From contig NZ_CP021455.1 in NCBI RefSeq assembly GCF_002158865.1, positions 1,096,835-1,160,834 of the forward strand: DNA of 64,000 bases. The letters are read 5' to 3'. The translations under genes and the position numbers were made by a program. The notes beneath the pieces are model-generated. The model did not search any database. It saw nothing but the letters and a program-made list of their open reading frames with translations, and was not told where the DNA came from. This DNA comes from Comamonas serinivorans. Its GTDB lineage: Bacteria; Pseudomonadota; Gammaproteobacteria; Burkholderiales; Burkholderiaceae_C. Of the stretch, positions 27,513-43,250 are shown piece by piece; within the stretch, counting starts at the first letter, position 1; each line of letters starts with the position of its first letter.

Positions 27513-27883
27513 GGCGAGGTCCTTGGCAAAAACCGACGGCTGACGAGGGACGGGCACGGCGGGCATGCCGTGCGCGGGTTCACTGCCCGGCCAGCTTTGC
27601 AAGCCTGGGCGGCCGAGGCTGTGCTTTAGGCGTCAGCGCAGGCCGCAGATGCCGTGCCTGGCCGGTGGCGAACGCCCGCCTGCGGCCGCGGAGCGCGCGG
27701 CGGCCAGGCGGACTAAAATCACCGGCTTCGCACCAAGGAGCGCTGCAGTTGGCCCAGGCCTTGCCTGGCCGGGCCTGTCAGGCTTGGTGCGGAACGTGTC
27801 GCGCCGGCCACGCCTGCGCTGGCGCGTGGTGTCAACGGCGCTCACCTGTTGTGTTGCTTGTCGGTTTTTTGCAGGTGAGTGTG

Positions 27884-30722: not shown

Positions 30723-31343
30723 TCAATCGCTGCGGCCGAATCCGGCGACAGGGTGTCGCAGGCGATCGTGGCGGTAGTCCTCGGCGACCTGTGCCCGCAG
30801 CACCTGCCAGTGCGCGCGGGACACATGCTGGCCCAGCGGCTGCCAGGCCGGGTAAGGGTTGTAGACCGCCACGTCGTCGGGGTACAGAAACGGCTGGAAC
30901 TTGAACGGGATGGGCAGCTGCGGTGCGGGCCCCAGGTTCAGCAGGGCCAGCAGACGCGCACAGCGGCCGCGAATGCGCTGCCAGTGTTCGCCCTCCACAA
31001 AGCCGCGGTGCGAGGTGTGCCAGGCCAGCTCGCGCACCACCTCGCGTTTCAAGGCTGGCGGAAAACGGTGCGCGTCGATCAGCCCATGCAGGCGCGGGTC
31101 GTCCAGCACGGCATCGGCCAGGTTCATCAGCTCGAAGTCCTGCAGCACCAGGGCGCAGAACAGCTGGTAGGCCGGGTTGCTGATGCGGTAGCCATGCTCC
31201 TCATCCAGCGTGATGGCGGCTTGGTGCGCGCCGGGGCTCACTGGCGTCAGCGTGCAGGTGTAGAAGTGCGCGAGCTGGGTGGCTGCTGGCAACTGGCCGA
31301 AGTGCAGCAACGCGTGCAGGTGGTTCAGGTCAAGCATCGGCAT
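30723..31343 (-). CDS. hypothetical protein (206 aa), downstream gene of the SPFH operon
   Basis: Good GC3. No recognised domain. 77 bp downstream of the SPFH gene on the same strand. Confidence 0.5.
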   Translation of the reverse strand: MPMLDLNHLHALLHFGQLPAATQLAHFYTCTLTPVSPGAHQAAITLDEEHGYRISNPAYQLFCALVLQDFELMNLADAVLDDPRLHGLIDAHRFPPALKREVVRELAWHTSHRGFVEGEHWQRIRGRCARLLALLNLGPAPQLPIPFKFQPFLYPDDVAVYNPYPAWQPLGQHVSRAHWQVLRAQVAEDYRHDRLRHPVAGFGRSD

Positions 31344-31420: not shown

Positions 31421-32581
31421 TCACCCTGGCTGGCGCAGCGTCACCAGGCCGTTCAGCACCTGATCGAGCCCGCCGACGACGGAGATCTTGTCGATGCGCT
31501 CGGCCACGCGCTCCAGCGTTTCCAGCTCCTTCATGCGCAGGGCGACGGGGTTGCCCTCCATCACCTTGGCGGTGTTCAACAGCGAACGCGTGGCCGCCGT
31601 TTCCTCGCGGCGGCGGATCACGTTGGCCTGGGCCGACTTTTCGGCCTCCACGACCTGGGCGAGGATGGTCTTCATCTCGCCGGGCAGGATGATGTCTTTC
31701 ACGCCCACGCTGTCCAGCGCCACGCCCGATTCAGCCAGGCGCTCGCGCACCTGGGCCAGCACGGCGCCATCGATGGCGGCCTTGTTTTCCAGCAACGCAT
31801 CCAGGTTCTGTTCGCCCACGGCGGCGCGCAGGCCGAATTGCAGCTCGCGGTAGACGTGGTCGGCTGGCTTGGGCATGCGCGCCAGCGCGCGCTGCACGTC
31901 GGTGAAGTGCCACACGGCCGAGAGGTTCAGTCGCAGGCCCACCTTGTCACGGGTCAGGATTTCCTGGCCATTCACCTCGGCGATCTGCGCTCGCAGGTCC
32001 ACGGTGCTCACGCTCACCTGACGGTTGAAGCGCCAGAAGCCATGCACGCCTGCCGGCAGCAGCGCTTGCATCTGGCCGTCCAGCGTGAGCACGCCAGCGT
32101 GGAACTCGGGCACCTGCACCAGCAGCACGCCGTCCAGGCCGCGCACGGCGCGCGGGCGCAGTGCCACGCTGTGCAGCTTGGCCAGCAACTCGGCGGGCAG
32201 GCGCGCGTCGGCGCTCAGGTCGACCACGTCCACGCGCTGTTCGCGCAGGCCGCGCCAGAACAGCTGGCGCGTGGACGGCGGCAGGATCTCGACCAGCACG
32301 CCGTCTTCGTGGCGCAGGCCGACCTCGGTTTCGCCCAGCACCACCTGCACGAACTCGCGGGCCAGCAGGGCCGGCTCGTGGGCTACGAAGTAGTCGGCCA
32401 GCTCGTGCTCAAAGCGCGCCGGCGCGTCCGGTTTGCCCAGCGAAAAGCGTTCCAGCGTCACATCGTCCAGGCCTGTGAACACGCGGTGCTTGCCCGGGCC
32501 AAACAGGCCGGCGAAATCGCCATCGCGCAGCAGCAGCGCGCGTTCGTGCTTTTTGACGGTGAAAATGGTGAATCCCAGCAT
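31421..32581 (-). CDS. SPFH/band-7 (slipin-like) domain protein
   Basis: C-terminal half carries the SPFH signature (VGVKDIILPGEMKTILAQVVEAEKSAQANVIRRREETAAT). ATG at 32581 with GGGAGAG RBS. Confidence 0.75.
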   Translation of the reverse strand: MLGFTIFTVKKHERALLLRDGDFAGLFGPGKHRVFTGLDDVTLERFSLGKPDAPARFEHELADYFVAHEPALLAREFVQVVLGETEVGLRHEDGVLVEILPPSTRQLFWRGLREQRVDVVDLSADARLPAELLAKLHSVALRPRAVRGLDGVLLVQVPEFHAGVLTLDGQMQALLPAGVHGFWRFNRQVSVSTVDLRAQIAEVNGQEILTRDKVGLRLNLSAVWHFTDVQRALARMPKPADHVYRELQFGLRAAVGEQNLDALLENKAAIDGAVLAQVRERLAESGVALDSVGVKDIILPGEMKTILAQVVEAEKSAQANVIRRREETAATRSLLNTAKVMEGNPVALRMKELETLERVAERIDKISVVGGLDQVLNGLVTLRQPG

Positions 32582-32609
32582 GTTGCTCTCCCGGTGTGTT
32601 GTTGGTCAT

Positions 32610-32659
32610 GGGTATGGCCGTGTCGTCATTGATGATCAGTCGCAAAAATTGCCATACCC
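32610..32659. repeat. SPR family copy (in 5' leader of SPFH gene)
   Basis: GGGTATGGCCGTGTCGTCATTGATGATCAGTCGCAAAAATTGCCATACCC. Confidence 0.55.
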
Positions 32660-32930
32660 AAGTTCTGTTCAAGGTGCCCAGCTCGCACAGGCTGCGGGCG
32701 ATCGGCGGGGTGCCGGCGCGCGTGGTCGTGCTCCCGGTTGTGTTGCTGGCACTGGCCTGGGCCAGGTGCACGGCCGCACAACCGCGATGGCGGCTGGCGC
32801 GCCAGGCACCGAAGCGCGAGGCACAGGCAGCCTGTGCGGGCAAGGTGCGCCGGGCGGCAGGACCAAGCCATTCGCCAAGCGCCGCCTTGCCAGGGCGGGT
32901 GGGGCTTTCGCCCCCATCCAAGCGGTGCAA

Positions 32931-33045
32931 GCACCGCGGCAATGGGCGGGAATCGAACCCGCAGCCGCCACCGAAGTCGCGGTGTTCAACCATGAACAAG
33001 TCTTGGACCGAAACCAAGCGTCACCTCAGCCCATCCGCGGCATAC
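32931..33045 (-). ncRNA. second tRNA-like structured element (canonical T-arm GCGGG-TTCGATT-CCCGC, anticodon-like hairpin CTTGG-TTTCGGT-CCAAG, extra hairpins, closing CCGCGG stem)
   Basis: Read on the minus strand. Lies about 80 nt downstream of the minus-strand sigma-54 promoter. No CCA or canonical acceptor, so it is not a standard tRNA gene. Confidence 0.45.
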
Positions 33046-33134
33046 CGCCCACCCAAGAACGGGTCTGGCGGGCGGCACCGGGCCGCATGCATGCGGCACC
33101 TCGTGCGGATGACTGCGTCCGACAGCAGGTGTCT

Positions 33135-33150
33135 TGCAGACGCCGTGCCA
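33135..33150 (-). promoter_or_regulatory. sigma-54 promoter on minus strand (TGGCAC-GGCGT-CTGCA), divergent from rtcR
   Basis: Reverse complement of plus-strand tgcagacgccgtgcca. Points toward the second tRNA-like element and the SPFH operon. Confidence 0.6.
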
Positions 33151-33280
33151 ACTTCCGGCCCAGGCCGTTTCCGCGTGGAGGCCGCTGCGCCAATGCCTTG
33201 ATTTGCAAGCGGTTCGGTGCCCCTGGCCCGCTGACCTGCGTGTCAGCGGGCGATCGTCGGTGTTTGCTAGACTGAGGACC

Positions 33281-33312
33281 CTTGATTCATCCGGCGCGTT
33301 CTTGATTCAGCC
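33281..33312 (+). promoter_or_regulatory. two direct copies of CTTGATTCA(T/G)CC upstream of rtcR ATG: candidate RtcR UAS / autoregulatory site
   Basis: cttgattcatcc at 33281-92 and cttgattcagcc at 33301-12. The same motif recurs upstream of the two plus-strand sigma-54 promoters. Confidence 0.4.
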
Positions 33313-34965
33313 ATGAAACCCATTCACGTCATCACCTTCCTGGGCACCCAGCTGGACAGCGGCAACGGTGCCGGCCGCTGGGAGAAGTGGCGGCCCACCG
33401 TGGCGCTGACCCAGCACGAGGACATGGAGGTCGCGCGGCTGGACCTGCTGCTGACCGGGCCCAGCCACCGGGCGCTGGCCGAGCGCGTGCGCGCCGACAT
33501 CGGCACGGTGTCGCCCGCCACCGAGGTCGTGCTGCACGAGTTGGCCGTGGACGATCCCTGGGACTTCGACGTCGTCTACACGCAGCTGTTCGATTGGGCC
33601 CGCGCGCAGGCCTTCGATACCGAGGCCGCGCAGTACTGGGCGCACATCACCACCGGCACGCATGTGGCGCAGATCTGCCTGTTCCTGCTGACCGAGTCGC
33701 GCGTGCTGCCCGGGGTGCTGTGCCAGACCTCGCCGCCCAAGCGGCAGCGCGAGGGCGCGGCCGGTGCCTACACGCTGATCGACCTCGACCTCTCGCGCTA
33801 CGACGCCATCGCCCAGCGCCATGCGGCCGACCAGCGCGATGCAGTGGCCTTCCTGAAAAGCGGCATCGCCACGCGCAATGCGCGCTTCAACGCGCTCATC
33901 GACGAGGTCGAGCGCGTGGCCGTGCGCTCCACCGCGCCGGTGCTGTTCGTGGGGCCCACGGGCGCGGGCAAGTCCTTCCTGGCCCGGCGCATGCACGAGC
34001 TGAAGAAATCGCGCCACCAGATCAACGGCGCCTTCGTCGAAGTCAACTGCGCCACGCTGCGTGGCGACGGCGCGGCCTCGACGCTGTTCGGCCACAAGCG
34101 CGGTGCTTTCACCGGCGCCGCCACCGACCGGCCCGGCCTGCTGCGCGCCGCCGATGGTGGGCTGCTGTTCCTCGACGAAATCGGCGAGCTGGGGGCCGAC
34201 GAGCAGGCCATGCTGCTCATGGCCATCGAAGACAAGCGCTTCTACCCCCTGGGTTCGGACCGCGAGGTGACCAGCGACTTTCAGCTGGTGGCGGGCACCA
34301 ACCGCGACCTGCGCGCCGAGGTCGCCGCGGGGCGGTTTCGCGAAGACCTGTTCTCGCGCATCAACCTGTGGACCTACGAGCTGCCTGGCCTGGCGGGCCG
34401 GCCTGAGGACATCGAACCCAACGTCGACTACCTGCTCACCCGCCATGCGCAAGCCTCGCGCCGCGCGGCCCGCTTCAACGTCGAAGCGCGCCGCGCCTAC
34501 CTGCGCTTTGCGCAAAGCGGCGAAGCGCTGTGGCGCGGCAATTTCCGCGACCTGTATGCCAGCGTGACGCGCCTGGCGACCCTGGCCGAGGGCGGGCGCA
34601 TCACCGAGCCGCTGGTGGTGGCTGAGATCAAACGGCTGCGCTGGATGTGGACGCGCGACAGCGCGGTGGCGGCGCCCGGCGCGCGCGCCTCGGGGGGCTC
34701 GCCGGGGGCGATGGCGGTCGATGCGGCGAGCGTGGACCTGGCCGACTTCTACGACGAAGCGGCCCTGGAGCAGATCGACCTGTTCGACCGCGTGCAGCTG
34801 CAGGGCGTCATCGCGGTGTGCCAGCGCTCGCGCACGCTGTCGGACGCGGGGCGCCAGCTGTACCAGGCCTCGCGGGCGCAACGCGCGGCGTTGAACGATT
34901 CGGACCGCCTGCGCAAGTACCTGGCCAAGTTCAACCTGAGCTGGGACCGCGTCAGCACACGATGA
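33313..34965 (+). CDS. rtcR: sigma-54-dependent transcriptional regulator RtcR (N-terminal CARF-like domain + AAA+ sigma-54 activator + C-terminal HTH)
   Basis: Walker A GPTGAGKS, GAFTGA sigma-54 contact motif, RtcR-specific N-terminal domain (VITFLGTQLD...WRPTVAL), C-terminal HTH. Confidence 0.9.
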   Translation: MKPIHVITFLGTQLDSGNGAGRWEKWRPTVALTQHEDMEVARLDLLLTGPSHRALAERVRADIGTVSPATEVVLHELAVDDPWDFDVVYTQLFDWARAQAFDTEAAQYWAHITTGTHVAQICLFLLTESRVLPGVLCQTSPPKRQREGAAGAYTLIDLDLSRYDAIAQRHAADQRDAVAFLKSGIATRNARFNALIDEVERVAVRSTAPVLFVGPTGAGKSFLARRMHELKKSRHQINGAFVEVNCATLRGDGAASTLFGHKRGAFTGAATDRPGLLRAADGGLLFLDEIGELGADEQAMLLMAIEDKRFYPLGSDREVTSDFQLVAGTNRDLRAEVAAGRFREDLFSRINLWTYELPGLAGRPEDIEPNVDYLLTRHAQASRRAARFNVEARRAYLRFAQSGEALWRGNFRDLYASVTRLATLAEGGRITEPLVVAEIKRLRWMWTRDSAVAAPGARASGGSPGAMAVDAASVDLADFYDEAALEQIDLFDRVQLQGVIAVCQRSRTLSDAGRQLYQASRAQRAALNDSDRLRKYLAKFNLSWDRVSTR

Positions 34966-35019: not shown

Positions 35020-35133
35020 AAGGCTAAGCATTCCACAATGGGATGATCAACAGCGCGCCCGCCGGCTTGCACGGTGGGGCGCATGCAGCGGCTGGCCCAA
35101 GGCCGGGTGCACGACATGGAGAGGGAGACGCAC

Positions 35134-35802
35134 ATGGCGCAGTACATCGAGGTCATTGGACAGGCCAGCGTGAGCGAAGTGGCCGTGGAGCAGCGCGTGG
35201 CGCTGACGGTGTCGCACCGCGGCAAGGGCGGTGGCATGTCGGACAAGGTGGTGGCGCACAAGGCCACGCAGCAGCGTGAGCGGGTGATCGCCACGCTGCT
35301 GGCCCACGGCATGCGGGAGCACGAATTGCATGAGGGCGGCATGGACAGCGGCACCTGGCACTTCAAGCGCAAGCGCGAGGTGCACCACAGCCACCGCATC
35401 CTGCTGATCTGCGAGGACGACGCGCGCCTGTTTGCGGCCCTCGAGGCCCTGGCGCCGCTGCAGGACGAGGGCGAGCTTGACTTGCAACTGGACATGCTGG
35501 ACGCCCGCTACGAGGTGCCGGCCGGTGCGCTGAGCGGGGCGCAGCAGGCGGCGGTGGCGCATGCCCGTGAGCATGCGAATGGCCTGGCGCAGGCTGCCGG
35601 CGTGGCGCTGGGCGCGGTGGTGCAGGTGCAAGAGCTGGCGCCGGCGCGGGAGCGTTCGGGTGCCTATGGCGAGTCCTGGTATGGCTTGGCCGCCGCAGGC
35701 GGCGCGGCTGCGGCACCGGCCATGACCCTCTTGGCGAGTAACCAGCGCACGCGCACCTTGAGCTACCGCGTGCGCTTTGCGCTGCAGCGGGCTGTGCCCT
35801 GA
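35134..35802 (+). CDS. SIMPL/DUF541-like protein without signal peptide
   Basis: IEVIGQASVSEVAVEQRVALTV repeat-like start. RBS GGAGAGGGAG. Confidence 0.45.
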   Translation: MAQYIEVIGQASVSEVAVEQRVALTVSHRGKGGGMSDKVVAHKATQQRERVIATLLAHGMREHELHEGGMDSGTWHFKRKREVHHSHRILLICEDDARLFAALEALAPLQDEGELDLQLDMLDARYEVPAGALSGAQQAAVAHAREHANGLAQAAGVALGAVVQVQELAPARERSGAYGESWYGLAAAGGAAAAPAMTLLASNQRTRTLSYRVRFALQRAVP

Positions 35803-35882
35803 CGCGCGTCGTTCGCCGCAACGCCTGGGCCGCGGTGGCCTGAATGTCGGTCCGACCGTGCACTGGGCAGGACGTGGGGCCA

Positions 35883-35917
35883 GTGAATCGCCTGCAACGC
35901 CCCTGCAGACGATTCAT
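35883..35917 (+). promoter_or_regulatory. inverted repeat TGAATCGCCTGCA-N7-TGCAGACGATTCA, candidate enhancer (UAS) about 110-140 bp upstream of the sigma-54 promoter at 36026
   Basis: 13-bp arms. Contains GATTCA as in the CTTGATTCAT motif. Confidence 0.4.
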
Positions 35918-36025
35918 GGGCGGGCGTAGAGTTCGCATCGAAAGCGATACAGTGGGATCGTGTTCGGCGGTCATGGTGGCGTGCAGCCCTGCTGTCGCCC
36001 TGGGGTGAAGCGGGATGGGCCGAAC

Positions 36026-36041
36026 TGGCACGGCCGTTGCG
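36026..36041 (+). promoter_or_regulatory. sigma-54 (-24/-12) promoter TGGCAC-GGCCG-TTGC
   Basis: Perfect match to TGGCAC-N5-TTGC. Lies 224 bp downstream of the SIMPL-like gene and immediately upstream of the tRNA-like element. Confidence 0.7.
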
Positions 36042-36058
36042 AAGGATGAGGTGAACGT

Positions 36059-36146
36059 GGGCCCAGGTCTGGGGTGGCGCAAAGCGAGCGCGTCGGACTT
36101 GAATCCGAAGGGTGCTGGTGCAAGTCCAGCCCCCAGACCTGGGCCC
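36059..36146 (+). ncRNA. tRNA-like (Y-RNA-like) structured element with 16-bp acceptor-like stem
   Basis: GGGCCCAGGTCTGGGG (36059-74) pairs perfectly with CCCCAGACCTGGGCCC (36131-46). Interior folds as TG / D-arm GCGC-AAAGCGA-GCGC / G / anticodon-like TCGGA-CTTGAA-TCCGA / variable AGGGT / T-arm GCTGG-TGCAAGT-CCAGC. No CCA. Confidence 0.6.
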
Positions 36147-36422
36147 GCGAAACCCGGGGGCGCGACGGCGCGAGGCAGGCCTTGACGCGGCGGCCGTGTC
36201 GGCAAGGGTGCAGCGAGAAGCGGCTACCAGGCCGGTTGCCACGCATCGCAGCCCGTCGGCCAGCCCGACCGGCAGGGGATGAGGTCAGGTGTGCAACGGT
36301 CTGGCGCAGTTCAAGGAGAACGCCCGACCATGCATCGGGAAGGTGCTGGACAAGCCAGCCGCCAGACCGTTGCGCATGGGCCAGTCCCCGTCCCGATCCA
36401 CACGAACACAGGGAGAGCGGCC

Positions 36423-39320
36423 ATGGGCCAGCACGACGAAGAGCACTCACCGGACGCCGGTGAGCACCCGGTGCCGCCGGCGCATGCGGCATCCGGGCTT
36501 GCCCAGGCGAACCCGGGCTGGGCAGCCGGCCAGCTTGCACGCGCCCGTGCGGCTTTGGCACAGGCACAGGTACAGCGGGACCCGTCAGGGCCCGACGCGG
36601 CCGGCGCTGCGTCATCCGCGGATACCGACGCTGCAGGCCACGCCGTGGCGCGTGCGCTGGCCAAGGTGAATGCCTGGCGCCAGGCCTTGGCCGGCATGGC
36701 CAGTGGCGAGCTGCAGGTGGGGTCGCGCACGCCGCTGCGCAACGTGGCGGCCTGGCTCACGCCGAATGTGTTGCACGGCGGATTCGCCTCGGGCCAGCTG
36801 ATGGCCGGGGGGCGCGCGCAAGCACACGAGACGCACTGGCTGGCGCAACTGGCGGCCGGTCAGCCGCTGGGCAGCACGCCGACCGACTGTGCCCGGATGG
36901 CCACGCTGGCGGCACAGCCCGTGGACCGCAGCACGCTGCCCCAGAAGCTGGACCGCACGCCGCTGAACGACTGGTTCCTGACCGAGGCGGGCCTGCAGCA
37001 GCTGATGCAGTGGCTGGACGACGGCCGCTGGCGCATCGCCGTGCCCGAGGAGGGCGCCTTGCTGGTGGTGGCCTGGCTGCTGAGGCAGGGGCATGACACC
37101 TCGGCGGCCCGCCTGTTGGACACCCTGTCGCCCTACTGGCACCGCGTTCGCTTTTACCCGCAGCCCGCTGCGACGCCCATGCCGGCGCTCGACCGCGTGA
37201 GCCTGCGCAGCGCGCAGGACGTGATGGCGCAGTTGAACCAGCTGCAGACGCCGCCCGCGGTGCTGGCCCAGCACCAAGCCATCCACGTGTGGCGCCCCTT
37301 GCTCGACGAGCTGGTGCTGCTGTGGCTGCAGGCCGTGCCCGGCGCGCTGCACGGCCCTGACGCTGCCGCGGCCCATGGCGAATCCGGGCGAGGTGCCGAC
37401 GGCGCCGTGACGGATGCGCTGCCGCGCCTGCGTGCCGGCACGCGCGAGGCCGAAGGCGGCTTGCCCCTGGCCGAGCCCGACGCCGACTGGCGGCAGCAGG
37501 CGGCGGCCTGGCGCCTGCGGGCGCGCGAGGCCGAGGCGCAGCACACGCGCAGCCGGGCGCACCGCAAGCCCGGCTCGCACGTGGCGCAGTTGTGGGCCAT
37601 GCTGGACCAGGTGCTGCAAGGTCAGGCCCTGAGCGAGGCACAGCGCCGCCGGCTGCGCTTTGTGCTGGCGTGCCAGGTCAGCGCCCATGGCGTGCCAGGC
37701 GATGCGAGGCACCACACCTGGCGCGCCGCGCAACGGGCGCAGACCGACACCGTGTGGCGCGCCCACTGGGCGTACGCACTGGCCGCGCGCGTGCAGGCGC
37801 AGGGCCCCTACGCGCTGGGCGATGGCCTGCCGGATCTGGACACCGCGCTGCAAGCTGCCACGGCGCAAGAGGCACAACAACATGCGCACCTGCCCGAAGG
37901 CACCGTGGTCTGGCCCAGCCTGCGCCGCAAGCTGCGCCGCGCCCACTTGGCCACCGTGCCGCAGCTGGTGCAAGCCGGCATCGTGCCGTCGAGCGAGGTG
38001 CTGGCCAGCGTGCTGCCCGGCACCACGGGCGCACAGCTGGCGCGCACCATGCCCGATGCGGCCAGCGCGCGGCTGCTGGGCGCGCTGTGGCGTGCGTTTC
38101 GCGGGCGACGCTCGGTGCTGCTGCTGAACCACGAGTCGCAGGTGCGCTTTCACGAGCTGCCCTGGGTGCTGCGCTTGCAGCAGCACGCCTGCGTGCCGGC
38201 GACGGCCGCCGGGACCGAGGGCGATTCGGCACATCGCTGGGACATGGCCGGCCTGGCGCGCAGCCAGGCGTTGGCGCAGCTGGATGCGGCCGCGCGCCTG
38301 GCGCTGACGCAATTCCCGCAATCGGCCTTCCCGAACCCGCTGCTGTGGGAGCTTCGCGCGCTGGCCGAGCAGGGTGGCTGGCAGCCGCCGTGGGTCGAAG
38401 ACATCGCGGCCGACATCTTCATGGGCAGCTTTGGGCCCAAGTTCGGGCAGGCCGTGCACGACGCGCTGCCCTGGTTGCAGGGCAGCCTGTATGCGCAGCA
38501 TTTCCAGCTCGACCTGGAGGCGCTGCGCCTGGCCATGGCGCCGGCCGTGGCCTGCCACGCGGCCTTTCAGCGTTACGCCGAAACGCCAGCGGGCTCACCC
38601 GGCAACCCCGCGGCCAAGCGCGAACAACAGGCCTTGCTGCAGCGCTATCACGCGGCGCCCGACCTGCTGGTGGCGCACCTGCGTGCGCGCACGGGCTGGT
38701 CGGCCGACGCCCGCGGCGTGGGCGCGAATGGCGCCGTCATCGAGCAGATGGGCCTGGTCAGCACGGCCAACTTCGCGCCGCTGGCGCAGCGCTTTGGCTG
38801 GGGCGTGGCCGGTGCCGGTTTGCGCGATGCCACGGCCCAGGCGCGCGAGCTCCAGGGGTGGGCGCAGGCCGCACGCACGGGCTTCGAGCGGCTGTGCGCG
38901 GGGCTGGACCTGGGCGTGCGCGAAGCCGGCGCCATGCTGGACAAGCCGCCAACCCAGATCCAGGCGACAAACCCGGCGGATGCCCATGCGGCAGCGACAG
39001 AAGCCCAGGCCGCCGACCGCCTGCTGGCCGAGCGCGTGCGCCGGGCCGCCACCAGCTGGCGCCAGGTCGTGCTGCTGCTGAGCCTGCTGCCCGCCGAGCA
39101 GCAGCGCGCCAACCTGCTGGGCATGCAGCGCCACCTCGCGGCCTGTGACACCCCCGCCAGCCGGGGCGTGACGCGCGCCCTGGCGCCCCAGCTGGCCGAC
39201 CTGATGGCCTGTGTGCAAGGCCAGGCGCGCGACGCCGGTCGGCCACCGTTCCACGGCTGGACCCAGCCAGGGCAGCGGGGCGTGCTGTTCACCCTGCGCC
39301 AGGGCCTGAAGGCCGGGTGA
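36423..39320 (+). CDS. large (about 965 aa) Ala/Leu/Arg/Trp-rich protein of unknown function in the rtc locus
   Basis: Uninterrupted frame with strong GC3 bias throughout. The antisense 648-aa ORF is rejected. Possible starts at 36279, 36330 and 36423; 36423 has the best RBS (AGGGAGAG). No catalytic motif recognised. Confidence 0.6.
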   Translation: MGQHDEEHSPDAGEHPVPPAHAASGLAQANPGWAAGQLARARAALAQAQVQRDPSGPDAAGAASSADTDAAGHAVARALAKVNAWRQALAGMASGELQVGSRTPLRNVAAWLTPNVLHGGFASGQLMAGGRAQAHETHWLAQLAAGQPLGSTPTDCARMATLAAQPVDRSTLPQKLDRTPLNDWFLTEAGLQQLMQWLDDGRWRIAVPEEGALLVVAWLLRQGHDTSAARLLDTLSPYWHRVRFYPQPAATPMPALDRVSLRSAQDVMAQLNQLQTPPAVLAQHQAIHVWRPLLDELVLLWLQAVPGALHGPDAAAAHGESGRGADGAVTDALPRLRAGTREAEGGLPLAEPDADWRQQAAAWRLRAREAEAQHTRSRAHRKPGSHVAQLWAMLDQVLQGQALSEAQRRRLRFVLACQVSAHGVPGDARHHTWRAAQRAQTDTVWRAHWAYALAARVQAQGPYALGDGLPDLDTALQAATAQEAQQHAHLPEGTVVWPSLRRKLRRAHLATVPQLVQAGIVPSSEVLASVLPGTTGAQLARTMPDAASARLLGALWRAFRGRRSVLLLNHESQVRFHELPWVLRLQQHACVPATAAGTEGDSAHRWDMAGLARSQALAQLDAAARLALTQFPQSAFPNPLLWELRALAEQGGWQPPWVEDIAADIFMGSFGPKFGQAVHDALPWLQGSLYAQHFQLDLEALRLAMAPAVACHAAFQRYAETPAGSPGNPAAKREQQALLQRYHAAPDLLVAHLRARTGWSADARGVGANGAVIEQMGLVSTANFAPLAQRFGWGVAGAGLRDATAQARELQGWAQAARTGFERLCAGLDLGVREAGAMLDKPPTQIQATNPADAHAAATEAQAADRLLAERVRRAATSWRQVVLLLSLLPAEQQRANLLGMQRHLAACDTPASRGVTRALAPQLADLMACVQGQARDAGRPPFHGWTQPGQRGVLFTLRQGLKAG

Positions 39321-39710: not shown

Positions 39711-40454
39711 ATGCCTTTACGCATCGACGAAGCCATCACCCAGCTGGATCACGGCTGGCTCAGCCATTTGAAATCGCAGGGTTACGGCGGCGATGCCTTG
39801 CGCCAGGCGATCGACCTGGTGCTGTACGCCCAACAGCAGGCGGCGGCGCGCAACAGCGCCGAGTTCAAGGCCGCCATCGCGCGCGTCAACCACCTGGTGG
39901 GGGCGGGCATCGCGTGTGACAACAACGGCGACTACCTGTACACGGCCGAGTGGCGCGACCCGGCTTGCGCCGGGCTGGGCTTCGCCATCGAATACGCGGC
40001 CGACCCGGCCAGCTGGCGGGCCGAGTTCCGCATGCCCGGCTGCTGGCCGCACACCGTGGACAACCTCGACATCACCGACACCCGCGCTGTGGACCACGAC
40101 TTTGCGCTCTGGCTGGCGCGCGCCAGTGCCCGCCATTTCACGCACCTGATCGAACGCCAGCTGCCCGAAGGCGAAGCACTGCGCGCGCCCTGTACGGCGG
40201 CCGTGCGGGCCGGCACCTGGGCCGAATTCGTGTGCCTGCACCCACTGCAACCCGTGGCCCGCCTGGGGCACGAGCGGCTGGAGCAGGCCGCCTGGTCGGC
40301 CCAATACCCCAGTGCCGCCCAGCGCGAGTTGCAGGCCCGCTTCGATGTGCAGAGCGCCTTGCTGCTGCGCTTGATCGTGGTTCAGCAGGCAGCATGGGCT
40401 TGGCATGAAGAGTATGGCGACAATCGCGATGACGATTCAACGGGAAGGCATTGA
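39711..40454 (+). CDS. hypothetical protein (248 aa)
   Basis: Good GC3. C-terminus and stop are supplied by an inserted palindromic repeat unit. Confidence 0.45.
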   Translation: MPLRIDEAITQLDHGWLSHLKSQGYGGDALRQAIDLVLYAQQQAAARNSAEFKAAIARVNHLVGAGIACDNNGDYLYTAEWRDPACAGLGFAIEYAADPASWRAEFRMPGCWPHTVDNLDITDTRAVDHDFALWLARASARHFTHLIERQLPEGEALRAPCTAAVRAGTWAEFVCLHPLQPVARLGHERLEQAAWSAQYPSAAQRELQARFDVQSALLLRLIVVQQAAWAWHEEYGDNRDDDSTGRH

Positions 40455-40462: not shown

Positions 40463-40814
40463 TTGATGTGGCGCTTGCTGAGGGCTGCTTGCCCGACACC
40501 GGAAGGCTGGCGTCGACGCAGGGACATGACGCGTGGCCAGCGGTGCATGGGCTCGCCAGCCGCCCGCACAGCGCCCCCAACCCGCTGACTGGGCGTCCTG
40601 ATGCAGCAGGCCTGGCTCGACCTGCCCGTGCTCTTTCGCCTGCATGCGCAGGCGCGTGGCCAACAGGTGGCGCAGCCCGAGCGGGCCGATGGGGTGTTCG
40701 CCATCCAGGGCACGGCCAGCGCGCAGCCTCACACCGTCCGAGACGGACCGCATCCGGGCCGATTGCCTGTGAAGGCGGGCTTGCAAGGGGCGCTGCATGG
40801 ATCGCTGGCGCGCT

Positions 40815-40828: not shown

Positions 40829-40934
40829 AGTTTGGCTTGCGGTGGCTGAGCCGTGGCGAGGCGCAGGCGCCCTCGACGCCAAGTGCTTGATCCGGCAAGG
40901 GTTTGCGCGGCTCGCCTGTTGATTTGGCGGGGCC

Positions 40935-40950
40935 TGGCACGCCGCGTGCA
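40935..40950 (+). promoter_or_regulatory. sigma-54 promoter TGGCAC-GCCGC-GTGCA upstream of rtcA
   Basis: GG/GC spacing correct, one mismatch at -14. About 38 bp upstream of the rtcA ATG. Confidence 0.6.
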
Positions 40951-40987
40951 ACGAGGATGGCCACACACAACTCAACTGGGAGCACAC

Positions 40988-42193
40988 ATGCCAACCGACG
41001 ACCAGGTGGAGGCGAAGCCGCGTCACCGTGACCCAGCTCGCACGGCCACCGCCGCAGACACCAAAAGCGTGACCGGCGCAGCGCAGACGGGCCGTGGCGC
41101 AGCCATCGAGATCGATGGCTCGCAGGGCGAGGGCGGCGGGCAGATCCTGCGCACGGCGCTGGCCTTGTCCATGATCACCGGCCAGCCGCTGCACCTGCGC
41201 GCCATCCGCGCCAAGCGGCCCAAGCCCGGGCTCATGCGCCAGCACCTGATGTGCGTGCAGGCGGCCGCGCAGGTCAGCGGGGCCCACATCAGCGGGGCCG
41301 AGCTGGGGGCCACCGAGTTGCGCTTCGCGCCGGGCCCGGTGCGGGCGAGCGCCTACGAATTTGCCATGGCCAGCGCAGGCAGCTGCATGCTGGTGCTGCA
41401 GACCGTGCTGCCGGCGTTGATGCTGGCCGATGCCCCCAGCACGCTGGTGCTGCGGGGCGGCACGCACAACCCCATGGCGCCCAGCTTCCACTTTGTGCGC
41501 GATGCCTTTGCGCCGCTGGTGCAGCGCCTGGGCGCCGGCCTGACGCTGCAGCTGCAGCGGCTGGGCTTTTACCCCGCAGGCGGTGGCGAGGTCACGGCCA
41601 CCATCACGCCTGCGGCCCGCCTGACCCCGTTCGACCTGACCGAGCGTGGCGAGCTGCAGCAGGGCGATGCTCTGTGCCTGACGCCGGGGCTGTCGGGGTC
41701 GATCGCGCGCCGCGAGCTGACGGCGCTGGGCCAGGCCATGGGCTGGGGCGAGGACCGCTTGCGCTTTGGCGAGGCCAGGCAGCACGAGGGGCCGGGCAAT
41801 GCCTTGATCGCCCGCCTGCGCTACGCCCACGTGACCGAGGTGTTCGTCGAGCTTGGGGCCCGCAACCTGTCGTCGGAGCAGGTGGCCGGCAAGCTGGTGC
41901 AGGCCATCCGGGCGTTTCAACGCCGGCCAGGTGCCGCGGTGGGCCCACACTTGGCCGACCAGCTGGTGCTGCTGCAGGCCCTGGCCGTGTGGCAGGCCGG
42001 ACGGACCGGCAGCCAGGCGGATGCGCCCCACGCCGATGTGCCCCAGGCGGATGTGCCGCAAGCACGCTTCTCGTGCAGCGAGGTGACCGAGCACTTGCGC
42101 ACCAACTGCGTGGTGATCGAACGCTTTCTGCCCGTGCGCTGCACGCTGACCCAGGGCCCTGTGTCCCGGGTGACGGTGCGCTGGGCGGGGTGA
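40988..42193 (+). CDS. rtcA: RNA 3'-terminal phosphate cyclase
   Basis: IEIDGSQGEGGGQILRTALALSMITGQP, GSAGSC and FYPAGGGEV RtcA signature blocks. About 37-aa N-terminal extension and an internal ADVPQADVPQ duplication. RBS GGGAG at 40977. Confidence 0.85.
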   Translation: MPTDDQVEAKPRHRDPARTATAADTKSVTGAAQTGRGAAIEIDGSQGEGGGQILRTALALSMITGQPLHLRAIRAKRPKPGLMRQHLMCVQAAAQVSGAHISGAELGATELRFAPGPVRASAYEFAMASAGSCMLVLQTVLPALMLADAPSTLVLRGGTHNPMAPSFHFVRDAFAPLVQRLGAGLTLQLQRLGFYPAGGGEVTATITPAARLTPFDLTERGELQQGDALCLTPGLSGSIARRELTALGQAMGWGEDRLRFGEARQHEGPGNALIARLRYAHVTEVFVELGARNLSSEQVAGKLVQAIRAFQRRPGAAVGPHLADQLVLLQALAVWQAGRTGSQADAPHADVPQADVPQARFSCSEVTEHLRTNCVVIERFLPVRCTLTQGPVSRVTVRWAG

Positions 42194-42365
42194 GTCCCGC
42201 GCGCCAGTCGGGGCACTGAGGCGGGCTGGCGGGGCCCCTGGCCTCGCCGGCCGGGCCCATGCCATCCCGCGCAAGGCCCGCCGGCGCCGAGGTGCCCGGC
42301 GCCGCGCAACGGACGATGCGCGGAGCTAGGGCCGGGGTGAGCGGGATGGGCGACAATCGCGCGCC

Positions 42366-43250
42366 ATGACTGCAGCCAACCCCTCTGCGGATTCGACCGT
42401 GAATTCCAACGCCTACATCCTGACCCTGTCTTGCCCCGACCGCACGGGCATCGTCCATGCCGTTTCGGGCTTTCTGCTGGAGCAGGGCGGCAACATCGAA
42501 GAAGCCGCGCAATTCAACGACCCGGGCACCGGCCTGTTCTTCATGCGCGTGCGTTTTGCCAGTGCCAGCGCGGACTACGAGGCCCTGCGCGCCAAGCTGA
42601 CCGACTTCGCCAAGCCGCTGGACATGAAGCTGCGCCTGTATTCGACCAGCGAGCCCATGCGCACGGTGATCTTCGTCAGCAAGGAAGGCCACTGCCTCAA
42701 CGACCTGCTGTTCCGCTGGAAGTCGGGCCTGCTGCCCATCGACATCCGCGCCATCGTCAGCAACCACCGCGACTTCTACCAGCTGGCCGCGAGCTACAAC
42801 ATCCCGTTCCACCACCTGCCCATGACCCGGGACAACAAGGCCGAGGTCGAGGCCAAGCAGTTCGAGATCATCAAGCAGGAAAGCGCCGACCTGGTGGTGC
42901 TGGCGCGCTACATGCAGATCCTGTCGGATGACCTGTGCCGCAAGCTGGCGGGGCGGGCCATCAACATCCACCACAGCTTCCTGCCCAGCTTCAAGGGCGC
43001 ACGCCCCTACTACCAGGCGCACGAGCGCGGGGTGAAGCTCATCGGCGCCACGGCGCACTACGTGACGGCCGACCTCGACGAGGGGCCCATCATCGAGCAG
43101 GACGTGGCGCGCGTGGACCACTCGCGCACCGTGGAAGACCTGACCGCCATCGGCCGCGACACCGAGAGCCAGGTGCTGGCCCGCGCCGTGAAGTGGCACA
43201 GCGAGCACCGCGTGCTGCTCAATGGCCACAAGACCGTGGTGTTCCGCTGA
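42366..43250 (+). CDS. purU: formyltetrahydrofolate deformylase
   Basis: ACT domain then formyltransferase core (HHSFLPSFKGARPY). Confidence 0.9.
   Translation: MTAANPSADSTVNSNAYILTLSCPDRTGIVHAVSGFLLEQGGNIEEAAQFNDPGTGLFFMRVRFASASADYEALRAKLTDFAKPLDMKLRLYSTSEPMRTVIFVSKEGHCLNDLLFRWKSGLLPIDIRAIVSNHRDFYQLAASYNIPFHHLPMTRDNKAEVEAKQFEIIKQESADLVVLARYMQILSDDLCRKLAGRAINIHHSFLPSFKGARPYYQAHERGVKLIGATAHYVTADLDEGPIIEQDVARVDHSRTVEDLTAIGRDTESQVLARAVKWHSEHRVLLNGHKTVVFR

What the first reader, a model, noticed from the sequence alone, without database searches (positions are those of the whole stretch)
36026..36150. Sigma-54 promoter driving a tRNA-like cloverleaf with a 16-bp acceptor-like stem (Y-RNA-like) downstream of rtcR
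A perfect sigma-54 promoter (TGGCAC-N5-TTGC, 36026-36041) is followed within about 20 nt by an 88-nt element at 36059-36146. The terminal 16 nt (GGGCCCAGGTCTGGGG and CCCCAGACCTGGGCCC) are perfectly complementary. The interior has the order and spacing of a tRNA: 2-nt U8/G9-like linker, a 4-bp/7-nt D-arm, 1 nt, a 5-bp anticodon-like hairpin, a 5-nt variable loop and a 5-bp/7-nt T-arm. It has no CCA, a non-canonical T-loop (TGCAAGT) and no GG in the D-loop. Bacterial Y RNAs (YrlA) are tRNA-mimicking modules closed by a long Ro-binding stem, and they sit in RtcR/sigma-54-controlled rsr-yrlBA-rtcBA operons. Here the element leads an operon that lacks both Rsr and RtcB, which is an unusual arrangement.
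Basis: partly seen in the sequence, partly recalled or inferred. Interest (0 to 1): 0.88.

Follow-up and report, generated by a model that had tools for sequence, protein, structure and literature searches.

The report
tRNA-like RNAs paired with unknown protein
The flagged element is real: it is one of two tandem tRNA-shaped RNAs that are very unlikely to decode, it follows an RtcR/sigma-54-type promoter, and it belongs to a widespread RNA family, undescribed as far as I could find, that sits directly in front of one uncharacterised ~800-residue protein and recurs inside bacterial RNA-repair operons.

Summary
Window 36059-36146 (Comamonas serinivorans) is a cloverleaf (Rfam tRNA 52.8 bits, gathering score 29) closed by a 16-19 bp stem. 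It has a 6-nt anticodon loop and no CCA, and it follows an exact sigma-54 -24/-12 motif downstream of rtcR. It is not a YrlA Y RNA: it has normal rather than permuted tRNA topology, no Ro60-site motif and no YrlA model hit, although that model finds a YrlA in a control locus.

It belongs to a family that travels with the downstream gene (36423-39320). This protein family has about 1,840 clusters, no Pfam/NCBIfam/PADLOC match, and a confident model with no solved structural relative. In 72 of 82 loci from many phyla, 1-4 tRNA-likes lie directly upstream on the same strand. All four stems covary. The body is strongly conserved, while anticodon positions drift at about the neutral rate and loops are 5-7 nt.

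The module recurs next to RtcR/RtcB/RtcA/Rsr and Pnkp/Hen1/RlaP genes in five phyla. I infer a dedicated tRNA-mimic partner of this protein that acts in the RNA-damage response, analogous to Ro60-Y RNA. No experiment supports this yet, and the biochemistry is unknown.

The parts
33313..34965 (+). rtcR, the sigma-54-dependent activator with a CARF-type RtcR domain
   Evidence: NCBIfam NF038308 RNA_repair_RtcR 788 bits (cut-off 650); Pfam RtcR and Sigma54_activat.
36026..36040 (+). Sigma-54 -24/-12 promoter motif TGGCAC-N5-TTGC. The inferred start site is near 36052, about 4 nt before the RNA helix.
   Evidence: It is the only exact match in the window. TGGCAC-N5-NTGC sits at the same relative position in L081 and L082. 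The start site is inferred, not measured.
36056..36149 (+). tRNA-like RNA copy 1. The cloverleaf core is 36068-36138, closed by a 16-bp perfect stem (36059-36074 with 36131-36146) that can extend to 19 bp. It has a 6-nt anticodon loop CUUGAA, T-loop UGCAAGU and no CCA.
   Evidence: Rfam tRNA 52.8 bits; ARAGORN; family model R1 70 bits; fold z = -6.4; stem extension of 12 bp beyond the acceptor stem.
The core is 36300-36368, closed by an 18-bp stem with 2 G.U pairs. It has a 7-nt loop CCAUGCA with C33 and a 5-nt T-loop.
   Evidence: R1 52.3 bits, E about 4e-11. The minimum-free-energy fold is this cloverleaf, z = -4.95. Second copies are present in L081 and L082.
36423..39320 (+). Gene for the partner protein (CCO03_04750, 'hypothetical'), about 965 aa with lineage-specific insertions; typical family members are about 780 aa.
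   Evidence: GC3 0.87. 38 word-index homologues and 1,839 profile hits. No Pfam, NCBIfam or PADLOC match. A start at 36423 is inferred from the homologues' N-terminal NPGYAxGQL motif, a GGGAGAG Shine-Dalgarno sequence, and the overlap of the longer ORF with copy 2.
39711..40454 (+). Lineage-restricted 247-aa protein of unknown function, conserved in the same position in L081, L082 and L083.
40589..40769 (+). Remnant (about 60 C-terminal residues) of a ~730-aa gene that is intact between the 250-aa gene and rtcA in L081 and L082.
   Evidence: tblastn with L081 p732 residues 672-732. A homologue is also adjacent to the module in the acidobacterial locus L072.
40853..42193 (+). rtcA, RNA 3'-terminal phosphate cyclase. 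This is the longest ORF; the true start is probably near 41100.
   Evidence: Pfam RTC 248.8 bits, aligned from residue 92; NCBIfam NF003246 372.7 bits.

Best explanation
The two elements are tRNA-shaped RNAs that almost certainly do not decode. They are members of a conserved family whose dedicated genetic partner is the protein encoded immediately downstream.

Shown:
- The RNA and the protein gene lie on the same strand with 0-54 nt between them and no terminator, in 72 of 82 loci from many phyla.
- The cloverleaf is kept by compensatory changes.
- The tRNA body, including C32 and U33, is under strong purifying selection.
- The anticodon bases are unconstrained.
- The module recurs in Rtc and Pnkp/Hen1 RNA-repair operons.

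Inferred:
- The RNA is cut out of the transcript. In most lineages this would be done by the normal tRNA-end machinery, which in Actinobacteria would leave a leaderless mRNA. In the window clade it may be done by RNase III acting on the 16-19 bp stems.
- The excised RNA binds the protein as a tRNA mimic. It could be a pseudo-substrate, a gate or a scaffold for a factor that handles damaged tRNA, much as Y RNA serves Ro60.
- In C. serinivorans the unit is switched on by RtcR and sigma-54 when RNA damage is sensed. The RNA has lost its free CCA end to a long closing stem.
For: Linkage
- ARAGORN finds a same-strand tRNA-like directly upstream in 63 of 80 loci, against 10 tRNAs in the other 1.57 Mb.
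- The family model R1 finds 91 copies in 72 of 82 loci at 65-92 bits. Genuine tRNAs in the same loci score 44-57 bits.
- The protein is the only gene conserved across the loci.

Structure
- 99.9% of cells are paired and 14 of 21 pairs carry compensatory changes.

Constraint pattern
- C32 is present in 91/91 copies and U33 in 89/91.
- There are 37 different 'anticodons', loops are 5-7 nt, and position 37 is a pyrimidine in 23/91.
- Anticodon mismatch tracks four-fold-site divergence (0.07, 0.39, 0.43, 0.60 at d4 0.11, 0.21, 0.31, 0.42), while the body stays at 2-8%.
- The D-arm, the anticodon stem and the variable loop AGGGC are nearly invariant. My understanding is that RNase P and RNase Z need only the acceptor/T-arm region, so this is more conservation than processing requires.

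RNA-repair context
- RtcR, RtcB and RtcA in L008; RtcR, Rsr, YrlA and RtcB in L027.
- RtcR and RtcA in L082 (with Rsr nearby); RtcA in L081, whose contig ends just upstream of the sigma-54 motif.
- A sigma-54 activator and RtcB in L007.
- Hen1, RlaP and Pnkp in L037 and L052/53; Hen1 and Pnkp in L030.

Window clade
- It keeps two copies although they have lost the features that favour tRNA-end processing and lie 54 nt from the start codon, which has its own Shine-Dalgarno sequence. This points to a role for the RNA itself.
- The stem extension is kept with different sequences in the orthologues.

Protein
- It is Arg-rich with net charge +17 and conserved Arg clusters, for example FRRRRS.
Against: - No transcript, processing or binding data exist. 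The RNA-protein contact is inferred only from genetic linkage.
- The protein's fold matches nothing solved, so no biochemical activity can be assigned.
- 10 of 82 loci lack a detectable tRNA-like, including L037, where the gene sits inside a Pnkp/Hen1 operon. The RNA may therefore be dispensable or encoded elsewhere.
- About 88% of loci have no RNA-repair gene within 10 kb.
- The 0-2 nt spacing to the ATG in 46 of 47 actinobacterial loci is equally well explained by a purely cis role.
Confidence: 0.45

Rival explanations
1. The element acts only in cis. It is a processing and expression module: the tRNA-like is the 5' UTR, and cleavage by RNase P and RNase Z (or RNase III in the window clade) sets the mRNA 5' end, giving a leaderless mRNA in Actinobacteria. 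This would couple expression of the protein to the tRNA-processing capacity of the cell. The excised RNA would be a by-product, as with the tRNA-like mascRNA cut from MALAT1.
For: - The ATG lies 0-2 nt after the tRNA-like in 46 of 47 actinobacterial loci, with no room for a Shine-Dalgarno sequence. Elsewhere the median gap is 19 nt and a Shine-Dalgarno sequence is often absent.
- No terminator separates the RNA from the ORF.
- N-CCA is encoded in 17 of 91 copies and follows the host convention for tRNA genes (PMC4681348).
- The anticodon is unconstrained.
Against: - The D-arm, the anticodon stem, C32/U33 and the variable loop are conserved far more than end-processing should need.
- The family keeps its sequence across phyla and is distinguishable from genuine tRNAs: 65-92 against 44-57 bits.
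- The window clade keeps two copies that have paired leaders, degenerate T-loops, a 54-nt spacer and a Shine-Dalgarno sequence.
- Up to four tandem copies are kept in one locus.
Confidence: 0.2
2. The element is a sentinel or decoy substrate. Its anticodon loop is cut by the same ribotoxins that cut tRNAs. [quoted passage not shown]
For: - tRNA halves with cyclic-phosphate ends, or nicked tRNAs, are the proposed RtcR signal (PMC7790460 and PMC10159003; PMC11090510).
- In the window clade the RNA heads an RtcR-type operon that ends in the cyclase RtcA.
- Tandem copies never share an anticodon: 0 of 22 pairs.
- It is linked to Pnkp/Hen1/RlaP, systems that repair anticodon-loop cuts (PMC12776372).
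Against: - The anticodon changes at about the neutral rate, not clearly faster.
- Loops of 5-6 nt and the random sequences argue against mimicry of particular target tRNAs.
- Most loci have no RtcR.
Confidence: 0.13
3. The module resembles a type III toxin-antitoxin system. The protein would be a tRNA-targeting toxin, and the co-transcribed tRNA mimic would be its RNA antitoxin, acting as a pseudo-substrate inhibitor.
For: - The RNA lies upstream of the protein gene in 1-4 tandem copies.
- It has the shape of a likely substrate.
- It neighbours RNA-repair systems.
Against: - No nuclease fold or motif is recognisable, and there is no PADLOC hit.
- The protein is absent from phage and viral collections, and on plasmids it occurs only on 7 actinobacterial replicons of 0.36-5.7 Mb.
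- It is large (about 780 aa) and of uniform architecture across phyla.
- No terminator lies between the RNA and the ORF.
Confidence: 0.08
4. The element is a YrlA-type Y RNA bound by Ro60.
For: - It has a long terminal stem with a tRNA-like head and lies in an RtcR operon.
- Rsr lies about 4 kb from the module in relative L082 and in the same operon in L027.
Against: - The topology is not permuted, and no GNCGAA motif is present.
- The YrlA model is silent here but positive in the control locus.
- There is no Rsr in the window.
- The family tracks the ~780-aa protein, not Rsr.
Confidence: 0.02
5. The element is a genuine decoding tRNA, a decaying tRNA pseudogene, or the relic of an integration site.
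For: It scores above the Rfam tRNA gathering score. Many non-actinobacterial relatives have canonical D-loops and T-loops and an encoded CCA.
Against: - Window copy 1 has a 6-nt loop and copy 2 has C33. Both 3' ends are buried in a 16-19 bp helix.
- The anticodon is not conserved between orthologues, and position 37 is a pyrimidine in 25% of copies.
- Strong purifying selection and covariation rule out a pseudogene.
- The fixed position upstream of one gene in many phyla rules out a chance integration relic.
Confidence: 0.02

Closest known systems
YrlA Y RNA with Ro60 (Rsr), in rsr-yrlBA-rtcBA operons
   Same: - Both are tRNA-mimicking non-coding RNAs encoded beside a large RNA-handling protein.
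- Both lie in RtcR/sigma-54-controlled RNA-repair operons.
- In the window clade the tRNA-like head is closed by a long stem formed from the 5' and 3' ends.
- Both can occur in more than one copy.
   Different: - YrlA's tRNA-like domain is permuted and its stem carries the Ro60 site GNCGAAN0-1G (PMC4201824). This family has normal tRNA topology with a closed anticodon arm and lacks that motif.
- The genetic partner here is a protein of about 780 aa with no solved structural relative, not the TROVE/vWA protein Ro60.
- Both RNA classes occur together in L027.
tRNA-like elements excised from longer transcripts (tRNA-mRNA co-transcripts; MALAT1 mascRNA; mitochondrial tRNA punctuation)
   Same: A tRNA shape inside a longer transcript whose excision by the tRNA-end enzymes would define the end of the neighbouring RNA. 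The 0-2 nt spacing to the ATG in Actinobacteria fits this.
   Different: Here the element is tied to one particular protein family across phyla, its sequence is conserved outside the parts that processing enzymes read, and its anticodon is free to vary. Processing has not been shown.
Type III toxin-antitoxin systems (ToxIN)
   Same: One to several tandem structured RNA units lie directly upstream of, and are co-transcribed with, the protein they are thought to partner.
   Different: The RNA is a cloverleaf, not a pseudoknot repeat. There is no terminator between the RNA and the gene, the protein has no ToxN/AbiE-like fold, and the module is not found on phages, on viral contigs or on any plasmid record smaller than 0.36 Mb.
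tmRNA with SmpB
   Same: A tRNA-like RNA with a dedicated protein partner acting in rescue of the translation apparatus.
   Different: There is no mRNA-like module and no G3:U70 alanine identity pair as a rule (5 of 69 copies). The free CCA end is lost in the window clade, and the partner is unrelated to SmpB.

Membership tests
YrlA / bacterial Y RNA (Rfam RF02553) | Score against the family covariance model | tested here: not met
   There is no YrlA hit at E<=10 in 35900-36400 or at E<=0.01 in the whole window. As a positive control, the same model gives 52.5 bits (E 2.4e-10) at L027 7946-8087.
YrlA / bacterial Y RNA (Rfam RF02553) | Terminal stem carrying the Ro60-binding motif GNCGAAN0-1G (PMC4201824) | tested here: not met
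   There is no + strand GNCGAA between 36025 and 36434, so none in either copy. The stems are perfect or G.U-containing duplexes.
YrlA / bacterial Y RNA (Rfam RF02553) | Permuted tRNA-like domain: the RNA ends are at the anticodon-stem position and the acceptor analogue is closed by a loop | tested here: not met
   The ends are at the acceptor stem and the anticodon arm is a closed hairpin.
YrlA / bacterial Y RNA (Rfam RF02553) | Encoded next to rsr (Ro60) | tested here: not met
   There is no Rsr in the 64-kb window by tblastn. Rsr is present near the module in L082 and L027 only.
YrlA / bacterial Y RNA (Rfam RF02553) | Bound by Ro60 in cells | not testable with these tools
   This needs immunoprecipitation.
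Decoding tRNA | Cloverleaf scoring above the Rfam RF00005 gathering score | tested here: met
   Copy 1 scores 52.8 bits against 29. Copy 2 is not detected by RF00005 or by ARAGORN.
Decoding tRNA | 7-nt anticodon loop with U33 and a purine at position 37 | tested here: not met
   Copy 1 has a 6-nt loop, CUUGAA. Copy 2 has CCAUGCA, with C33. Across the family, loops are 5-7 nt and position 37 is a pyrimidine in 23 of 91 copies.
Decoding tRNA | Anticodon conserved between orthologues | tested here: not met
   There are 37 different triplets, and mismatch tracks four-fold-site divergence.
Decoding tRNA | Free 3' end with discriminator and CCA (encoded or addable) | tested here: not met
   In the window both copies bury these positions in an 11-12 bp extension of the acceptor stem. 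17 of 91 relatives do encode N-CCA.
Decoding tRNA | Aminoacylation and use on the ribosome | not testable with these tools
   This needs acid gels or periodate assays.
Protein-linked tRNA-like family defined here (model R1) | Score against the family model above the range of genuine tRNAs (44-57 bits) | tested here: inconclusive
   Copy 1 scores 70 bits, which meets the test, but it was in the training alignment. Copy 2 scores 52.3 bits, inside the range of genuine tRNAs, and is accepted on position and on its orthologues in L081 and L082.
Protein-linked tRNA-like family defined here (model R1) | Same strand, directly upstream of a member of the ~780-aa protein family | tested here: met
   The window copies end 274 and 46 nt before the ATG at 36423. 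The same holds in 72 of 82 loci.
Protein-linked tRNA-like family defined here (model R1) | Invariant C32-U33 and variable loop AGGGY | tested here: met
   Copy 1 has C32, U33 and AGGGU. Copy 2 has C32 but C33, and AAGGU.
RtcR / sigma-54 regulon | Adjacent rtcR and a -24/-12 promoter in front of the unit | tested here: met
   rtcR is at 33313-34965. The exact motif is at 36026-36040 and is conserved in L081 and L082.
RtcR / sigma-54 regulon | RtcR-dependent transcription | not testable with these tools
   This needs RNA-seq or a reporter in rtcR mutants.
Type III toxin-antitoxin | A terminator between the RNA repeats and the toxin gene, and a toxin with a ToxN/AbiE-type RNase fold | tested here: not met
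   There is no + strand terminator in 35750-36480. Spacing is 0-2 nt in Actinobacteria. There is no fold match and no PADLOC match.

The most novel reading that the evidence does not exclude
A previously unrecognised two-part system: a protein with no solved structural relative plus its own dedicated tRNA mimic. It would form a ribonucleoprotein that surveys or handles damaged tRNA, and would be a third accessory arm of bacterial RNA repair beside Ro60/Y RNA and RlaP. It is present in about 1,800 protein clusters across many phyla. Its anticodon bases are deliberately ignored, and excision of the RNA also creates the protein's own (leaderless) mRNA.
Probability: 0.35. Interest if true: 0.9.

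Novelty: new variant of a known kind. Interest (0 to 1): 0.8.

Why it matters
Bacterial RNA repair (Rtc, Pnkp/Hen1) still lacks clear natural substrates and accessory factors, and Y RNA is so far the only dedicated non-coding RNA known in these operons.

This result gives a concrete, testable RNA-protein pair: a tRNA mimic whose body is conserved while its anticodon is free, and a large protein family that no domain library describes and whose confident model matches no solved structure. The pair is found in Streptomyces, Variovorax, Myxococcus, Planctomycetota, Verrucomicrobiota, Chloroflexota, Cyanobacteria and others, and is recruited again and again into both repair systems.

It also matters for annotation. 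These genes are likely to be called as tRNAs with arbitrary isotypes, which inflates tRNA counts and suggests spurious suppressor or 'SeC' tRNAs. ARAGORN did this here.

The arrangement in Actinobacteria, with the ATG 0-2 nt after the tRNA-like, is a clean natural case for studying how tRNA-end processing could generate a leaderless mRNA.

Tried and rejected
- Homology of the large protein: Pfam, NCBIfam, PADLOC and a PDB sequence-profile search all gave nothing.
- Mobile or viral origin: no hits in GenBank phages or IMG/VR, and only 7 large actinobacterial plasmid records of 0.36-5.7 Mb.
- Diversifying selection on the anticodon: rejected as unproven. With correctly paired proximal copies the anticodon changes at about the four-fold-site rate. 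An earlier run was biased because ARAGORN had missed second copies.
- The 10 loci without a tRNA-like: nhmmer with --max, relaxed ARAGORN and R1 all found nothing.
- Literature: eight full-text searches found no description of this RNA-protein pair. Burroughs & Aravind 2016 (NAR, RNA repair systems) is not held, so prior mention there cannot be excluded.
- The non-coding stretch 32606-33306: Rfam found nothing.
Full report
1. THE OBSERVATION

The sequence is as described.
- An exact TGGCAC-N5-TTGC lies at 36026-36040.
- Nineteen nt later an 88-nt element begins, whose terminal 16 nt (36059-36074 and 36131-36146) are perfect reverse complements.
- The interior has tRNA order: TG, a 4-bp/7-nt D-arm, G, a 5-bp anticodon-like arm, AGGGT, and a 5-bp/7-nt T-arm.

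Rfam's tRNA model scores the core 36068-36138 at 52.8 bits against a gathering score of 29. ARAGORN calls a tRNA with a 2-nt 'anticodon', because the loop CUUGAA has 6 nt, not 7. The region folds far better than shuffles, z = -6.4, and the helix can reach 19 bp, 36056-36149.

The sigma-54 motif alone is weak. There is 1 exact match against 0.29 expected, and 26% of shuffles have at least one. Its position and its conservation in relatives make it credible (section 5).

2. CONTEXT

The window is from Comamonas serinivorans. I called genes by GC3 and annotated them. On the + strand the order is:

| Feature | Coordinates |
|---|---|
| rtcR (NF038308, 788 bits) | 33313-34965 |
| SIMPL-family gene | 35074-35802 |
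| Sigma-54 promoter motif | 36026-36040 |
| tRNA-like RNAs | 36056-36377 |
| Long ORF with no match in any domain library | ends 39320 |
| 247-aa unknown | 39711-40454 |
| rtcA | ORF 40853-42193 |
| purU | 42330-43250 |

No RtcB or Rsr is found in the 64 kb.

3. THE KEY RESULT: THE RNA TRAVELS WITH THE DOWNSTREAM PROTEIN

The long ORF belongs to a family with 38 clusters by word-index search and 1,839 by full profile search, nearly all about 780 aa. At least 562 loci exist among GTDB species genomes, of which 80 were fetched.

- ARAGORN found a same-strand tRNA-like directly upstream in 63 of the 80 loci, against 10 tRNAs in the other 1.57 Mb.
- A covariance model built from these (R1) found 91 copies in 72 of 82 loci: 55 single, 16 double, one quadruple. 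They score 65-92 bits, while genuine tRNAs in the same loci score 44-57 bits.
- All-against-all clustering of ORFs showed that the protein is the only gene conserved across the loci.
- The carriers include Streptomyces and other Actinobacteria, Variovorax, Planctomycetota, Verrucomicrobiota, Acidobacteriota, Chloroflexota, Cyanobacteria, Myxococcus and others.

4. A SECOND COPY IN THE WINDOW

R1 finds a second, more degenerate copy at 36300-36368 (52.3 bits). Its minimum-free-energy fold is a cloverleaf closed by an 18-bp stem, 36289-36377, z = -4.95. Its T-loop has only 5 nt and its loop reads CCAUGCA.

This copy overlaps the start of the longest ORF. Together with the homologues' N-terminal motif and a GGGAGAG Shine-Dalgarno sequence, this places the protein's start at 36423.

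5. THE WINDOW CLADE

The closest relatives are metagenomic loci L081 and L082, with 55-63% protein identity. Their order is: a sigma-54 motif (TGGCAC-N5-GTGC or ATGC), two tRNA-likes, the protein, a ~250-330 aa protein, a ~730 aa protein, and RtcA. In L082, RtcR lies upstream and Rsr about 4 kb away.

In the window the ~730-aa gene has been lost, apart from a C-terminal remnant at 40589-40769.

The extended closing stem is specific to this clade. It adds 8-12 consecutive bp beyond the acceptor stem in 5 of the clade's 6 copies. The sixth, L082 copy 2, has an 8-bp extension interrupted by one C/A mismatch. The 85 other copies have 0-2 bp. The extension sequences differ between orthologues (GGGCCCAGG, GCAAAGG and TTCAAG in copy 1), which is compensatory change.

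Relatives outside the clade often encode N-CCA (17 of 91). In the window the former discriminator and CC positions are paired with the leader.

6. WHAT IS CONSTRAINED

On 69 distinct sequences the cloverleaf is 99.9% paired. 14 of 21 pairs carry changes on both sides, and slid controls drop to 33-44%.

- U8, A9, the D-stem, G30, G31, C32, U33, the variable loop AGGGC and the T-stem G-C pairs are invariant or nearly so.
- Positions 34-37 are the most variable unpaired columns.
- Across the 91 copies, C32 is present in 91/91 and U33 in 89/91.
- There are 37 different 'anticodons'. Loops are 7 nt (77 copies), 6 nt (10) or 5 nt (4). Position 37 is a pyrimidine in 23 copies. To my knowledge decoding tRNAs almost never have a pyrimidine there.
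- With correctly paired proximal copies, anticodon mismatch follows four-fold-degenerate divergence of the adjacent gene (0.07, 0.39, 0.43, 0.60 at d4 0.11, 0.21, 0.31, 0.42). The body stays at 2-8%.

So the anticodon bases are unconstrained and the rest is under strong purifying selection. I do not claim diversifying selection. Still, no tandem pair shares an anticodon (0 of 22 pairs).

7. COUPLING TO THE ORF

In 46 of 47 actinobacterial loci the ATG lies 0-2 nt after the tRNA-like, with no room for a Shine-Dalgarno sequence. Elsewhere the median gap is 19 nt. The window has 54 nt and a Shine-Dalgarno sequence. No + strand terminator lies between the RNA and the ORF.

Encoded CCA follows host convention: it is present in Variovorax-type copies and absent in Actinobacteria, where most genuine tRNA genes also lack it (PMC4681348). 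From this I infer that typical members are matured like tRNAs, and that in Actinobacteria the 3' cut would leave a leaderless mRNA.

8. FUNCTIONAL CONTEXT

Outside its own gene, the neighbours that recur across phyla are RNA-repair genes.

| Locus | Lineage | RNA-repair neighbours |
|---|---|---|
| Window | Betaproteobacteria | RtcR, RtcA |
| L081 | close relative of the window | RtcA (contig ends upstream of the sigma-54 motif) |
| L082 | close relative of the window | RtcR, RtcA, Rsr nearby |
| L008 | Acidobacteriota | rtcR divergent from DUF6847, two unknowns, RtcB (with intein), RtcA, tRNA-like, protein |
| L027 | Planctomycetota | rtcR divergent from Rsr, YrlA, RtcB, two tRNA-likes, protein |
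| L007 | Planctomycetota | a sigma-54 activator upstream and RtcB downstream |
| L037 | Rhodothermales | Hen1, RlaP, RlaP, Pnkp, then the protein |
| L030 | Planctomycetota | Hen1 directly after the protein, and Pnkp |
| L052/53 | Planctomycetota | Pnkp, RlaP, Hen1 |
| L048 | Armatimonadota | a weak RtcB fragment |

That is 9-10 of 82 loci in about five phyla. I estimate that chance adjacency within 10 kb would be well under 1%; this is an estimate, not a computed figure.

These systems repair ribotoxin cuts in tRNA anticodon loops (PMC12776372). RtcR is proposed to sense tRNA halves with cyclic-phosphate ends or nicked tRNAs (PMC7790460 and PMC10159003).

9. THE PROTEIN

The protein is Arg-rich (81 R against 13 K, net charge +17) with conserved Arg clusters and acidic residues. 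That is compatible with RNA binding but does not establish it. It is absent from phage and viral collections, and on plasmids it occurs only on large actinobacterial replicons.

10. COMPARISON WITH KNOWN FAMILIES

It is not a YrlA. The features that define YrlA, taken from Chen et al. 2014, were tested:
- Permuted topology: not met.
- The GNCGAA Ro60-site motif: not met.
- An adjacent rsr: not met in the window.
- The Rfam YrlA model: silent here, yet positive at L027 7946-8087 in the same operon as two copies of this family.

It is not a decoding tRNA or a pseudogene (sections 5 and 6). What it may work like is Ro60-Y RNA: a tRNA mimic partnered with a large protein in the RNA-damage response.

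11. MECHANISM AND CONFIDENCE

| Reading | Confidence |
|---|---|
| Excised tRNA-mimic partner of the downstream protein, induced by RtcR and sigma-54 in this genome | 0.45 |
| Purely cis processing and expression leader | 0.20 |
| Sentinel or decoy for anticodon nucleases | 0.13 |
| Type III toxin-antitoxin-like antitoxin | 0.08 |
| YrlA | 0.02 |
| Genuine tRNA, pseudogene or integration relic | 0.02 |

Two points favour a role for the RNA itself. First, the D-arm, the anticodon stem and the variable loop are conserved beyond what I understand RNase P and RNase Z to require. Second, the window clade keeps two copies that have lost processing-friendly features and lie far from the start codon.

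The main weaknesses are that there are no expression or binding data, that 10 of 82 loci lack the RNA, and that the protein's activity is unknown.

12. NOVELTY

Eight full-text searches found no description of this RNA-protein pair. One key comparative paper could not be read.

I rate it a new variant of a known kind: a tRNA-mimic non-coding RNA in RNA-repair operons, but with a new RNA family and a new protein partner.

Noticed in passing
window 33136-33150 (- strand) and 32606-33306: A sigma-54-like site with one mismatch (TGGCACGGCGTCTGC) points leftwards from just upstream of rtcR. It faces about 700 bp with no coding signal (GC3 about 0.66 in all frames), followed by a Band_7/SPFH gene (31421-32581, -) and a 206-aa unknown (30723-31343, -). 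This could be a second RtcR-dependent unit. One-mismatch sites are not enriched in the window (11 against 11.4 expected), and Rfam finds nothing there.
   Followed up: partly
window 40589-40769: A remnant of a ~730-aa gene with no Pfam match. The gene is intact between the 250-aa gene and rtcA in L081 and L082, and a homologue lies next to the module in the acidobacterial locus L072. The C. serinivorans operon is therefore a decayed version of the clade's layout.
   Followed up: partly
window 36279-36645: The deposited start of CCO03_04750 (891 aa, so about 36645) looks too far downstream, and the longest ORF (start 36279) overlaps tRNA-like copy 2. The homologues' N-terminal motif and a Shine-Dalgarno sequence favour 36423. 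In the same way, the rtcA ORF (start 40853) carries about 85-90 residues ahead of the RTC domain that relatives lack.
   Followed up: partly
L027 7801-8087: Two YrlA-like RNAs lie between rsr and rtcB in a Pirellulaceae MAG. They score 52.5 and 22.4 bits, both below Rfam's gathering score of 69, so planctomycete Y RNAs are probably missed by standard annotation.
   Followed up: partly
L008 6828-8780: The RtcB of a Chloracidobacterium MAG carries an intein (Pfam Intein_splicing, 71.9 bits). The operon also begins with a DUF6847 protein and two unknowns.
   Followed up: no
L032 9641-9973: Yinghuangia aomiensis has four tandem tRNA-like copies with four different loops in front of the gene. This is the largest array seen.
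   Followed up: partly
L015 versus L016, and L057 versus L069: In some close species pairs, all three anticodon positions and position 37 differ while the body differs by 1-4 nt. The same two loops, CUCGGGA and CUUCCUA, recur across Streptomyces. This suggests block replacement or sorting of old paralogues, not point drift.
   Followed up: no
L082 1590-1661 (- strand), 3275-3341 and 3547-3593 (- strand): A further tRNA-like hit (43.9 bits) lies near an HNH gene, and two weak hits lie downstream of rsr. The weak hits may be the tRNA-like domains of Y RNAs in the window's closest relative.
   Followed up: no
window 27729-27850 and 5794-5915 (- strand): An SAH riboswitch (48 bits) lies ahead of the B12-dependent methionine synthase gene. 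A Bcj11 Burkholderia-type sRNA (69 bits) is also present. Both look like ordinary annotations.
   Followed up: no
L046 and L079 (Actinomadura), and several other loci: ARAGORN labels family members as tRNA-SeC(tca), Pro, Gly, Ser and so on. Automatic pipelines are likely to report these as extra or suppressor tRNAs.
   Followed up: no
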